From Candidatus Jordarchaeales archaeon (lineage in GTDB: Archaea; Asgardarchaeota; Jordiarchaeia; Jordiarchaeales; Freyrarchaeaceae): DNA of 32,000 nucleotides. The stretch spans positions 674,499 to 706,498 of the forward strand of contig JAWAHN010000001.1 in assembly GCA_038889235.1 (NCBI GenBank). The letters are read 5' to 3'. Below, in pieces: positions 20,541 to 31,086 of the stretch. The position numbers and the translations under genes were made by a program. The notes below the pieces were generated by a model that saw only the letters and a list, made by a program, of their open reading frames with translations, was not told the DNA's origin and did no database searches. Position 1 is the stretch's first letter. The number at the start of each line of letters is the position of its first letter.

Positions 20541-20631
20541 TGGTGGGCGGGCCAGGATTTGAACCTGGGACCTCCACGGTGTCAACTTCGCCCTTTCTGT
20601 GTGGCGTCATAACCAGCTAGACTACCCGCCC
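20541..20631 (-). tRNA. tRNA-Val(GAC) with one 14-nt non-canonical intron (30/31); CCA encoded
   Basis: Minus strand reads GGGCGGG TA GTCTAGCTGGTTATGAC G CCAC[ACAGAAAGGGCGAA]G TT GAC AC CGTGG AGGTC CCAGG TTCAAAT CCTGG CCCGCCC A CCA. Spliced length is 77 nt with a perfect cloverleaf. Confidence 0.93.
20587..20600 (-). other. tRNA-Val intron at position 30/31
   Basis: Central helix CGCC/GGCG with 3-nt bulges AC^A and AA^G. Confidence 0.85.
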
Positions 20632-20667
20632 ACAAGTGTAAAATGTGATTGGTGGACCCCGCGGGAC

Positions 20668-20689
20668 TTATTCAGCTTTTTGTGAGCCT
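20668..20689 (-). other. tRNA-Ala intron 3 (58/59, 22 nt)
   Basis: A GGCT CACAAAA AGCT GAAT AA. Central helix (A or G)TTC/GAAT, bulges AA^A and AA^G. Removal restores the 7-nt T-loop TTCAAGT. Confidence 0.78.
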
Positions 20690-20694
20690 TTGAA

Positions 20695-20712
20695 TTCGCG
20701 GCCTCCTGGGCT
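20695..20712 (-). other. tRNA-Ala intron 2 (53/54, 18 nt)
   Basis: A GCC CAGGA GGC CGCG AA. Central helix CGCG/CGCG, bulges GG^A and AA^T. Confidence 0.85.
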
Positions 20713-20732
20713 CCCGCGGCCTCCGCGATGCC

Positions 20733-20754
20733 GACGCGCCTCCTTTTCGGAGGA
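20733..20754 (-). other. tRNA-Ala intron 1 (33/34, 22 nt)
   Basis: T CCTCC GAAAA GGAGG CGCG TC. Central helix CGCG/CGCG, bulges TT^T and TC^G, perfect 5-bp intron hairpin. Confidence 0.88.
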
Positions 20755-20815
20755 AACGCGGTGCTCTACCAGGCTGAGCTAGGGGCCCACCGTGATTGAG
20801 AAAATAATTGAGGGC

Positions 20816-29613: not shown

Positions 29614-31086
29614 TTAACCCTTGACGACACCTATTGGTCTAAGTTTGGCTACTAGGGATGCAATGCCTACCTTATGGGAAACGTCGACAACCAAATCGAC
29701 GTTTTTATACGCATCTGGCGCTTCTTCACTTATGACAACTATACTGGCAGCCTCTATGAGTATACCTGATTTTTGAAGCTCATTCTTGATTTTTTCACCC
29801 CAAAACTTCTTCTTTGCGTCAGCTCTGCTAAGCCGCCGGCCTGCACCGTGAGCCGTTGAACCGAAACTTAGTTCCATGGATTCAGGGTTTCCTCGTAAGA
29901 CATAACTAGCAGTACCCATGGTTCCAGGTATGAGAACCGGTTGCCCAATGTCTTTGTACTTTGACGGTATATCTGGATGACCTGGCGGGAAAGCTCTAGT
30001 AGCGCCTTTTCTGTGGACACATAGGACTTTGCTTTCGCCATCAACACGGTGTCTTTCAAGCTTAGCGATGTTGTGAGCCACATCGTATACTACATGTATT
30101 CCAAGGTCTTCGGAAGAAGAGGAGAAGACTTTTTCAAACGATTCGCGCACCCAGTGTGTTATGCACTGCCTGTTTGCCCAAGCAAAGTTTGCAGCCGCCG
30201 CCATCGCCGCCAAGTAATCTTCACCCTCCCTGCTTTTTCCTGGAACAGCCGCCAGCTCTCTGTCTGGAAGCGAGATACCATACTTTCCCATTGCGTGCTC
30301 CATTATCTTTAAATAATCGGAGCATACCTGATGACCTAAACCACGTGAACCGGTATGTATTAGTACTGCTATCTGTCCCTCAAATAATCCCATTTTCTCG
30401 GCTGCCCTCGCATCATAAACTTGCTCAACATATTGTATTTCAAGGAAGTGGTTACCGCTACCTAGTGTCCCGAGTTGAGGGGCACCACGATCCTTTGCCT
30501 TAGAGGAGACCTTGCTCGCATCAGCACTCTTAAGACACCCCTCCTCCTCACAAAATATTCGGTCTTCATCCCAACCGAAGCCTTTTTCGATCGCCCAATT
30601 CACACCGCTTTCAAGTACTTCATTTAGTTCAGAGTGAGAGACTCTAATCTTGCCCTCAGAACCCACACCACTAGGAATCTCTCTGAATAAAACTGCTAGT
30701 AACTCTTTGAGCTTGGGAATAACTTCTTTCTTCGAAAGATTTGTCCTGAGAAGACGAACACCACAATTTATATCGTAACCAACCCCTCCTGGAGAAACCA
30801 CACCATCCTCTTCAAAGTCGACTGCTGCAACTCCGCCTATGGGGAAACCATATCCTTGATGAGCATCAGGAAGAGCTATGGAGTTTTTCTGGATTCCCGG
30901 TAGGCACGCTACATTCATAGCTTGAACTAATGTTTGGTCTTTCTTCATTCCATCGAGAAGTTCCTCATTCGCGAAAATTATGGCCGGAACACGCATACAC
31001 TTCTTGGCATCCTTCGGTATTTCCCATATTAGGTTAGATCTTTTTTTCAGAGGAACCTGGGACACGCCCACCACCCTTCTTTCCAT
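29614..31086 (-). CDS. rtcB: tRNA-splicing ligase RtcB
   Basis: PDAHQGYGFPIGGV, GYDINCGVRL, GTLGSGNHFLE, HTGSRG, DVAHN, HRKGATRA, STAHGAGR, EEAPDAYK. No intein. The start is uncertain (ATG 31086 preferred over the ORF-track 31128). Confidence 0.97.
   Translation of the reverse strand: MERRVVGVSQVPLKKRSNLIWEIPKDAKKCMRVPAIIFANEELLDGMKKDQTLVQAMNVACLPGIQKNSIALPDAHQGYGFPIGGVAAVDFEEDGVVSPGGVGYDINCGVRLLRTNLSKKEVIPKLKELLAVLFREIPSGVGSEGKIRVSHSELNEVLESGVNWAIEKGFGWDEDRIFCEEEGCLKSADASKVSSKAKDRGAPQLGTLGSGNHFLEIQYVEQVYDARAAEKMGLFEGQIAVLIHTGSRGLGHQVCSDYLKIMEHAMGKYGISLPDRELAAVPGKSREGEDYLAAMAAAANFAWANRQCITHWVRESFEKVFSSSSEDLGIHVVYDVAHNIAKLERHRVDGESKVLCVHRKGATRAFPPGHPDIPSKYKDIGQPVLIPGTMGTASYVLRGNPESMELSFGSTAHGAGRRLSRADAKKKFWGEKIKNELQKSGILIEAASIVVISEEAPDAYKNVDLVVDVSHKVGIASLVAKLRPIGVVKG

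What the first reader, a model, noticed from the sequence alone, without database searches (positions are those of the whole stretch)
20668..20712. 5-nt micro-exon and predicted obligatory splicing order of the two T-arm introns
Seen in sequence: introns 2 and 3 flank a 5-nt exon TTCAA (20690-20694). While intron 2 is present, the central helix of intron 3 is the perfect ATTC/GAAT and uses the last A of intron 2. After intron 2 is removed, it weakens to GTTC/GAAT with a terminal G-U. That same A must sit in the 3' bulge of intron 2's own motif, so the two motifs are mutually exclusive. Inference: intron 3 is excised and ligated first, then intron 2. This ordered cut-ligate-refold cycle would also avoid releasing a free 5-nt exon.
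Basis: partly seen in the sequence, partly recalled or inferred. Interest (0 to 1): 0.65.

Follow-up and report, generated by a model that had tools for sequence, protein, structure and literature searches.

The report
Five-base exon between two tRNA introns
An alanine tRNA gene of a hot-spring Asgard archaeon really has two tiny introns only five bases apart whose cutting structures share two bases, so they must be removed one at a time, but the sequence does not fix which goes first, and such genes and ordered splicing are already known.

Summary
Window 20650-20788 (minus strand) is a tRNA-Ala(GGC) gene with three bulge-helix-bulge (BHB) introns at 33/34, 53/54 and 58/59. The exon between the last two is TTCAA (20690-20694).

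The two T-arm motifs share A20695 and T20694, which are bulged in one motif and paired in the other. This overlap is forced by geometry: independent strict motifs need an exon of at least 7 nt.

Twelve distinct homologues from Jordarchaeia genomes and metagenomes keep the same design, with compensatory changes in the intron helices.

One-at-a-time removal with ligation in between follows logically. An obligatory intron-3-first order does not:
- A-U versus G-U changes the isolated motif energy by 0.3 kcal/mol, in favour of G-U.
- The partner base fits G53 in 11 of 12 homologues and the intron-2 A in 9 of 12. It is C in two genes, which pairs only after intron 2 is gone.
- The A is also conserved in relatives that lack intron 3.
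- Folding in context gives a modest intron-3-first bias. The isolated-motif energy rule from a red alga predicts intron 2 first.

Heavily interrupted tRNA genes of this lineage and ordered BHB processing are published. This scan also found the same design before on other DNA.

The parts
20650..20788 (-). tRNA-Ala(GGC) gene, 139 nt, with G3:U70 and an encoded CCA. It consists of four exons and three introns.
   Evidence: The spliced 77-nt product is called tRNA-Ala(ggc) by ARAGORN and folds as a cloverleaf minimum-energy structure.
20755..20788 (-). Exon 1 (positions 1-33).
20733..20754 (-). Intron 1, 22 nt, at 33/34. Central helix CGCG/CGCG (20760-20757 with 20738-20735), bulges TT|T and TC|G, inner helix CCTCC/GGAGG.
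   Evidence: The cut rule gives U33 and anticodon GGC. Isolated motif energy -13.3 kcal/mol.
20713..20732 (-). Exon 2 (positions 34-53), ending in the T-stem 5' strand GCGGG.
20695..20712 (-). Intron 2, 18 nt, at 53/54. Central helix C48-G51 (20718-20715) with CGCG (20700-20697), bulges GG|A and AA|T, inner helix GCC/GGC (20711-20709 with 20703-20701). No outer exon helix (HBh' type).
   Evidence: The central helix is invariant in 12/12 homologues and the inner helix has compensatory changes at two pairs. Isolated motif energy -8.1 kcal/mol.
20690..20694 (-). 5-nt micro-exon TTCAA, T-loop positions 54-58.
   Evidence: Present in all 12 homologues (the search pattern itself required TTCAA). Matches the TTCAA of the intron-less paralogues in the same genome.
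20668..20689 (-). Intron 3, 22 nt, at 58/59. Central helix ATTC (20695-20692, the first base belonging to intron 2) with GAAT (20673-20670), bulges AA|A and AA|G, inner helix GGCT/AGCT (20688-20685 with 20677-20674).
   Evidence: Covariation in the inner helix. Isolated motif energy -2.7 kcal/mol with the A and -3.0 with G53.
20694..20695 (-). The two nucleotides shared by the two motifs: bulged in intron 2's motif, paired in intron 3's central helix.
   Evidence: Read directly from the sequence. Any exon shorter than 7 nt between two strict motifs forces such an overlap (inference from motif geometry).
20650..20667 (-). Exon 4 (positions 59-76): GT, the T-stem 3' strand CCCGC, the acceptor 3' strand, the discriminator A, and CCA.

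Best explanation
This is the single tRNA-Ala(GGC) gene of a Jordarchaeia (Asgard) archaeon. It is interrupted by three protein-spliced bulge-helix-bulge introns.

The two T-arm introns are 5 nt apart. A cutting motif needs 6 nt upstream of its 5' cut (4 paired and 2 bulged) and 1 bulged nt downstream of its 3' cut. The two motifs therefore necessarily share two nucleotides and cannot form at the same time.

The pre-tRNA must go through one cut, one ligation and a refolding before the second intron can be presented to the endonuclease. The micro-exon then stays attached to a larger piece as long as each ligation precedes the next cut.

The direction is not fixed by the sequence. Each motif can form in the primary transcript, and each can form after the other intron is gone, since U opposite position 53 pairs with either the intron-2 A or G53. 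I expect both routes to be possible, with a modest bias towards intron 3 first. The reason is that after intron 2 is removed the restored T-stem competes for G53.

Shown here: the anatomy, its conservation, the enzymes encoded, and the energies. Inferred: actual splicing, the need for ligation between the cuts, and the bias.
For: Anatomy and product.

Conservation and covariation in 12 distinct homologues covering the GGC, TGC and CGC isoacceptors of four related genomes plus metagenomes.

Both motifs are available in every context. Constrained-ensemble costs in the window gene at 37 C are 3.8 (intron 2) and 2.1 (intron 3) kcal/mol in the full precursor, 3.8 for intron 3 after intron 2 is removed, and 2.0 for intron 2 after intron 3 is removed. 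At 75 C they are 3.6, 3.7, 4.8 and 3.3.

The terminal pair matters little.

The partner base is U in 9, C in 2 and A in 1 of the 12 homologues. Changing it to C in silico flips the preferred route.

Two EndA paralogues, consistent with the broad-specificity two-subunit endonuclease, and RtcB are encoded in this genome.

It is the only copy of this isoacceptor found in the genome, so it must be processed correctly.
Against: - There are no RNA data. Splicing itself and any order are inferred.
- Nearest-neighbour energies ignore the enzyme, base modifications and the in situ temperature. At 75 C the isolated intron 3 motif is unstable in either version (+3.9 and +3.5 kcal/mol).
- In most homologues with GAGT as the 3' strand of the central helix, the strict motif costs 7-12 kcal/mol after intron 2 is removed. 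In those genes the order could be effectively fixed.
- Intron 3 is never seen without intron 2 in the 14 Jordiarchaeaceae Ala genes examined. That would also fit a real dependence of intron 3 on intron 2.
Confidence: 0.6

Rival explanations
1. One reading: intron 3 must be cut out and ligated first, because its central helix is perfect only while the last A of intron 2 is present. Intron 2 follows.
For: In-context folding favours this route in 11 of 12 homologues, strongly so in those with GAGT. Intron 3 never occurs without intron 2 in the genes sampled. Intron 2's motif becomes easier to form after intron 3 is gone (3.8 to 2.0 kcal/mol).
Against: - A-U versus G-U is energetically neutral in the isolated motif. 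It is worth 0.1-0.5 kcal/mol in context.
- G-U pairs count as standard pairs of the central helix in the motif definition encoded by the classifier of preprint 10.64898/2026.10.13.758758.
- The partner base is C in two G004 genes and A in one metagenome gene, so the A-U pair is absent in 3 of 12.
- The A is conserved where intron 3 does not exist.
- Before ligation this order leaves intron 2's motif intact next to a free TTCAA 3' end (inference).
Confidence: 0.12
2. Intron 2 is removed first in most molecules. Its GC-rich motif is much more stable and is transcribed first. Intron 3 is then cut from a GTTC/GAAT motif.
For: - Isolated motif energies are -8.1 (intron 2) versus -2.7 (intron 3) kcal/mol.
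- In C. merolae the observed order follows motif energy, lowest first (PMC3728597).
- The partner base pairs with G53 in 11 of 12 homologues, including G-C in two.
- Intron 2 occurs without a 58/59 intron in Freyrarchaeaceae, so it is self-sufficient.
- After intron 2 is cut but not yet ligated, intron 3 has only a 3-bp helix, which protects the micro-exon (inference).
Against: In the whole precursor, intron 2's motif competes with the T-stem and other CGCG-containing helices and is not favoured over intron 3's. After intron 2 is removed the T-stem competes for G53, which makes intron 3's strict motif costly in most homologues.
Confidence: 0.22
3. The locus is not a functional, spliced tRNA gene. 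It would be a decaying pseudogene, or the inserts are not introns.
For: No RNA evidence is available. Standard finders do not call it.
Against: - The product is a perfect cloverleaf with the alanine identity pair G3:U70.
- It is the only GGC isoacceptor copy found.
- Exons are near-invariant while introns vary with compensatory changes.
- The splicing enzymes are encoded.
- The lineage is published as having most tRNA genes interrupted (PMC11291895).
Confidence: 0.03

Closest known systems
Heavily interrupted tRNA genes of the Asgard classes Jordiarchaeia (Freyrarchaeaceae, Jordiarchaeaceae) and Atabeyarchaeia (Valentin-Alvarado et al. 2024, PMC11291895; Goswami et al. 2026 preprint, 10.64898/2026.10.13.758758)
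   Same: Same lineage. Multiple short non-canonical introns per gene, sitting at BHB motifs. T-arm introns are common. Standard tools miss many of them. Two EndA paralogues are encoded.
   Different: Those papers give censuses and evolutionary reconstructions. In the text I could search, they do not discuss micro-exons, overlapping motifs or splicing order.
[quoted passage not shown] 2007, 2008, as cited in PMC3728597)
   Same: Up to three BHB introns per tRNA at non-canonical sites. There is interdependence between neighbouring motifs and hence sequential processing.
   Different: Here neither motif depends strictly on prior removal of the other. They are mutually exclusive alternatives in one transcript rather than nested. 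I could not read the primary papers, which are not held.
Ordered BHB processing of multi-intron pre-tRNAs in the red alga Cyanidioschyzon merolae (Soma et al. 2013, PMC3728597; PMC9602550)
   Same: Three introns, including one at 53/54. Intermediates show a preferred order that correlates with the free energy of each motif.
   Different: In the alga the motifs fold independently, and the order is kinetic or energetic. Here two motifs physically share nucleotides. The alga's energy rule would predict intron 2 first in this gene.

Membership tests
Archaeal BHB (protein-spliced) tRNA introns | A 4-bp central helix flanked by two 3-nt bulges on opposite strands, with cuts after the second bulge base. 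| tested here: met
   All three introns fit. The cut rule reproduces the T-arm of the intron-less paralogues, and U33 with anticodon GGC.
Archaeal BHB (protein-spliced) tRNA introns | At least one flanking helix (h or h') that closes a bulge, supported by covariation. | tested here: met
   The inner helices of introns 2 and 3 show compensatory changes at two pairs each. 95.8% of cells pair, against 30-51% when partners are slid. The outer helix h is absent or poor, so these are the HBh' type.
Archaeal BHB (protein-spliced) tRNA introns | Removal of the introns yields a canonical tRNA. | tested here: met
   ARAGORN calls the spliced product tRNA-Ala(ggc). It folds as a cloverleaf minimum-energy structure.
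Archaeal BHB (protein-spliced) tRNA introns | The genome encodes the splicing endonuclease and the RtcB ligase. | tested here: met
   Two PF01974 paralogues at 111 and 77 bits. RtcB at 600 bits, lying in this window at 29617-30924 on the minus strand.
Archaeal BHB (protein-spliced) tRNA introns | Demonstrated excision and ligation in RNA. | not testable with these tools
Multi-intron tRNA genes of Jordiarchaeia | Belongs to the lineage and carries two or more non-canonical introns. | tested here: met
   Relatives that carry the same gene are titled Candidatus Jordarchaeia or Jordarchaeales. There are three introns and none is at 37/38.
Nested or obligatorily ordered BHB introns (Thermoproteales type) | One intron's motif can form only after another intron has been removed. 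| tested here: not met
   Each motif can be formed in the primary transcript and also after removal of the other, at costs of 2-4 kcal/mol in the window gene.

The most novel reading that the evidence does not exclude
The two T-arm introns form a co-dependent unit. The 3' end of intron 2 (CGCGAA) would act as a built-in stand-in for the T-stem strand. It would present intron 3 to the endonuclease before the real T-stem can trap G53. Intron 3 could then be processed efficiently only while intron 2 is still in place. This would explain why the pair is kept or lost together across the family.
Probability: 0.15. Interest if true: 0.55.

Novelty: new member of a known kind. Interest (0 to 1): 0.3.

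Why it matters
The gene is a clean natural substrate for asking how a BHB endonuclease and RtcB handle two cutting motifs that compete for the same nucleotides. It also bears on how short an exon between two such introns can be.

It gives a simple rule: exons shorter than 7 nt force one-at-a-time processing. It also supplies comparative material, namely 12 homologues plus relatives with only one of the two introns, for designing the experiment.

It does not reveal a new mechanism. Interrupted tRNA genes in this lineage and ordered BHB processing are both already described.

Tried and rejected
- ARAGORN and Rfam on the unspliced gene found nothing usable.
- My first T-arm scans of the genome were far too permissive and produced hundreds of chance hits, and one timed out. 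After tightening, the window gene was the only hit listed with perfect scores for both central helices and an encoded CCA end. Only the first 60 of 114 hits were printed, so part of contig C2 and all of C3 to C8 were not inspected.
No intermediates could be sought.
- The primary papers of Sugahara 2007, Tocchini-Valentini 2011 and Marck and Grosjean 2003 are not held. Statements about nested archaeal introns therefore rest on their citation in PMC3728597.
- A literature search for archaeal tRNA micro-exons found nothing relevant.
- I considered an outer helix formed by intron 2's 3' end with positions 60-64 (A-U, G-C, C/C mismatch, G-C, C-G). The constrained minimum-energy fold prefers the real T-stem instead, and all the bases involved are invariant, so the idea cannot be tested by covariation.
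- I considered exon skipping, that is pairing the 5' site of intron 2 with the 3' site of intron 3. CGCG cannot pair with GAAT, so I rejected it.
- They are corrected.

Full report
**What is there**

Window 20650-20788 on the minus strand is a 139-nt gene. Its parts are:
- exon 1, 20755-20788
- intron 1, 20733-20754 (22 nt, at 33/34)
- exon 2, 20713-20732
- intron 2, 20695-20712 (18 nt, at 53/54)
- the micro-exon TTCAA, 20690-20694
- intron 3, 20668-20689 (22 nt, at 58/59)
- exon 4, 20650-20667

Joining the exons gives 77 nt. ARAGORN calls this tRNA-Ala(ggc). At 37 C its minimum-energy structure is a cloverleaf. It carries the alanine identity pair G3:U70 and an encoded CCA. The unspliced gene is invisible to ARAGORN, and its best Rfam tRNA match (25.7 bits) stays below the 29-bit cut-off.

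**The boundaries do not rest on the motif alone**

This genome's own tRNA-Ala(TGC) and tRNA-Ala(CGC) genes read GCGGG-TTCAAAT-CCCGC with no T-arm insert. That delimits both insertions.
- Intron 2's boundary is unambiguous.
- It obeys the rule '4 paired, 2 bulged, cut' (CGCG, GG|A ... CGCG, AA|T).
- The same rule applied to intron 1 gives U33 and anticodon GGC.
- Applied to intron 3 it gives 58/59.
- By sequence alone intron 3 could slide by up to 2 nt and give the same product.

- Intron 3's central helix is ATTC (20695-20692) with GAAT (20673-20670). Its A is the last base of intron 2.
- After intron 2 is removed, G53 takes that place.
- In intron 2's motif the 3' bulge is A20696, A20695 | T20694.
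- A20695 and T20694 must therefore be unpaired for one motif and paired for the other.

This overlap is a geometric necessity rather than a design feature. A strict motif needs 6 nt upstream of its 5' cut, and the preceding motif needs 1 bulged nt downstream of its 3' cut. Any exon shorter than 7 nt forces an overlap (inference from the motif definition).

**Lineage and conservation**

Pattern scans name the relatives as Candidatus Jordarchaeia or Jordarchaeales hot-spring genomes. Four related genomes and eight metagenome contigs yield 12 distinct tRNA-Ala genes (GGC, TGC and CGC). All have both T-arm introns at the same two sites and the same TTCAA exon.

On the alignment A1:
- 95.8% of helix cells pair, against 30-51% when partners are slid by 1-3 columns.
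- Each intron-internal helix has two pairs with compensatory changes.
- Intron 2's central helix is invariant.

After I tightened the filters of a genome scan for the same double T-arm design, the window gene was the only hit listed with perfect scores for both central helices and an encoded CCA end. Only the first 60 of 114 hits were printed.

The genome encodes two EndA paralogues, as expected for the broad-specificity two-subunit enzyme. It also encodes RtcB, which lies in this window at 29617-30924 on the minus strand.

**Does the sequence fix the order? Evidence for intron 3 first**

I forced each strict motif and compared the ensemble free energy with the unconstrained ensemble.

| Motif and context (window gene) | Cost at 37 C (kcal/mol) | Cost at 75 C (kcal/mol) |
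|---|---|---|
| Intron 2 motif, full precursor | 3.8 | 3.6 |
| Intron 3 motif, full precursor | 2.1 | 3.7 |
| Intron 3 motif, after intron 2 removed | 3.8 | 4.8 |
| Intron 2 motif, after intron 3 removed | 2.0 | 3.3 |

- Eleven of 12 homologues favour the 3-then-2 route.
- The preference is strong where the 3' strand of the helix is GAGT: 7-12 kcal/mol after intron 2 is removed.
- The cause is general. Once intron 2 is gone, the T-stem forms and competes for G53.
- With a relaxed motif (3-bp helix, intact T-stem) the difference in the window gene is about 1 kcal/mol at 37 C and about 0.2 at 75 C.
- Intron 3 is never seen without intron 2 in the Jordiarchaeaceae genes sampled.

1. Isolated motif energies are -13.3 (intron 1), -8.1 (intron 2), -2.7 (intron 3 with the A) and -3.0 kcal/mol (intron 3 with G53). 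The swap from A-U to G-U does not weaken the helix in the nearest-neighbour model.
2. Changing A20695 to G in place raises the cost of intron 3's motif by 0.5 kcal/mol at 37 C and 0.1 at 75 C.
3. The base opposite is U in 9, C in 2 and A in 1 of the 12 genes. It pairs with the A in 9 of 12 and with G53 in 11 of 12.
4. In the two G004 genes with C, a full 4-bp helix exists only after intron 2 is removed. Putting C into the window gene in silico flips the preferred route: 3.4 kcal/mol before and 2.5 after.
5. In the sister family, G005 and G006 tRNA-Ala(GGC) genes have a 53/54 intron ending in the same CGCGAA but no 58/59 intron. G007-G010 have an uninterrupted T-arm. The terminal A is therefore conserved independently of intron 3, and intron 2 is self-sufficient.
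6. In C. merolae, the observed order of BHB processing follows motif energy, lowest first (PMC3728597). That rule predicts intron 2 first here.

**The 'no free pentamer' argument**

Mutual exclusivity keeps the 5-nt exon attached in either order, provided ligation precedes the second cut.
- If intron 3 goes first, the unligated 5' piece still carries a complete intron 2 motif. That motif has no outer helix and needs nothing downstream of U54. A premature second cut would release UUCAA.
- If intron 2 goes first, the unligated 3' piece offers intron 3 only a 3-bp helix.

If protecting the micro-exon were the selective force, it would favour intron 2 first. This is inference.

**Conclusion on mechanism**

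Removal is sequential: one cut, one ligation, refolding, then a second cut. The direction is not dictated by the sequence. I expect both routes to occur, with a modest bias to intron 3 first in this gene and a possibly stronger one in the GAGT homologues.

| Reading | Probability |
|---|---|
| Flexible order | 0.6 |
| Intron 2 first | 0.22 |
| Obligatory intron 3 first | 0.12 |
| Not a functional gene | 0.03 |

**Comparison with what is known**
- 92-95% of tRNA genes carry at least one intron, and over half carry several, in Atabeyarchaeia and Freyarchaeia (PMC11291895).
- A 2026 preprint reports about 2 intervening sequences per tRNA gene in Jordiarchaeaceae, with T-arm insertions mostly at canonical motifs (10.64898/2026.10.13.758758).
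- Neither text discusses micro-exons or order.
- Ordered BHB processing was shown experimentally in C. merolae. The same paper states that in some archaea the last intron can form its motif only after the others are processed.
- The present case is not nested in that sense. The motifs are mutually exclusive alternatives.
- Earlier notes of this scan describe the same tRNA-Ala design, and even a 4-nt exon, on other Asgard genomes.

I therefore file this as a new member of a known kind.

**Limits**
- No RNA evidence could be obtained.
- Energies come from ViennaRNA without protein, base modifications or polyamines.
- At 75 C the isolated intron 3 motif is not stable on its own, so enzyme binding must do much of the work.

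Noticed in passing
window 20544-20631 (-): [quoted passage not shown] The tandem pair is conserved at 85-87% identity in G003 and G004.
   Followed up: partly
window 29617-30924 (-): The genome's only RtcB ligase gene (600 bits, 509-aa open frame) lies in the same window, about 9 kb from the multi-intron tRNA.
   Followed up: no
G000:C1:1088319-1088410 and G000:C1:481103-481195 (loci L027, L028): This genome's tRNA-Ala(TGC) and (CGC) genes lack both T-arm introns but keep a D-arm intron. Their orthologues in G001-G004 keep all three. The two T-arm introns were apparently lost together.
   Followed up: partly
L011:1500-1686 and L018:1500-1687 (G006, G005): These Freyrarchaeaceae tRNA-Ala(GGC) genes have the 53/54 intron, also ending in CGCGAA. 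They also have a second 29-nt T-arm insert after TTCGAAT, near 60/61-62/63, to which I could not fit a strict BHB motif. G007-G010 have an uninterrupted T-arm.
   Followed up: partly
whole genome G000: Only 12 matches reach the Rfam tRNA threshold in a 2.14-Mb genome that is 95% complete. Most tRNA genes must therefore be hidden by introns.
   Followed up: no
G000:C3 about 466400-469800, also C4 and C5: A repeated unit TTCAATCCCCATTTGTGGGGACTGTTTTTGTTTC recurs at spacer-like intervals. It looks like CRISPR arrays and turned up as noise in my T-arm scan.
   Followed up: no
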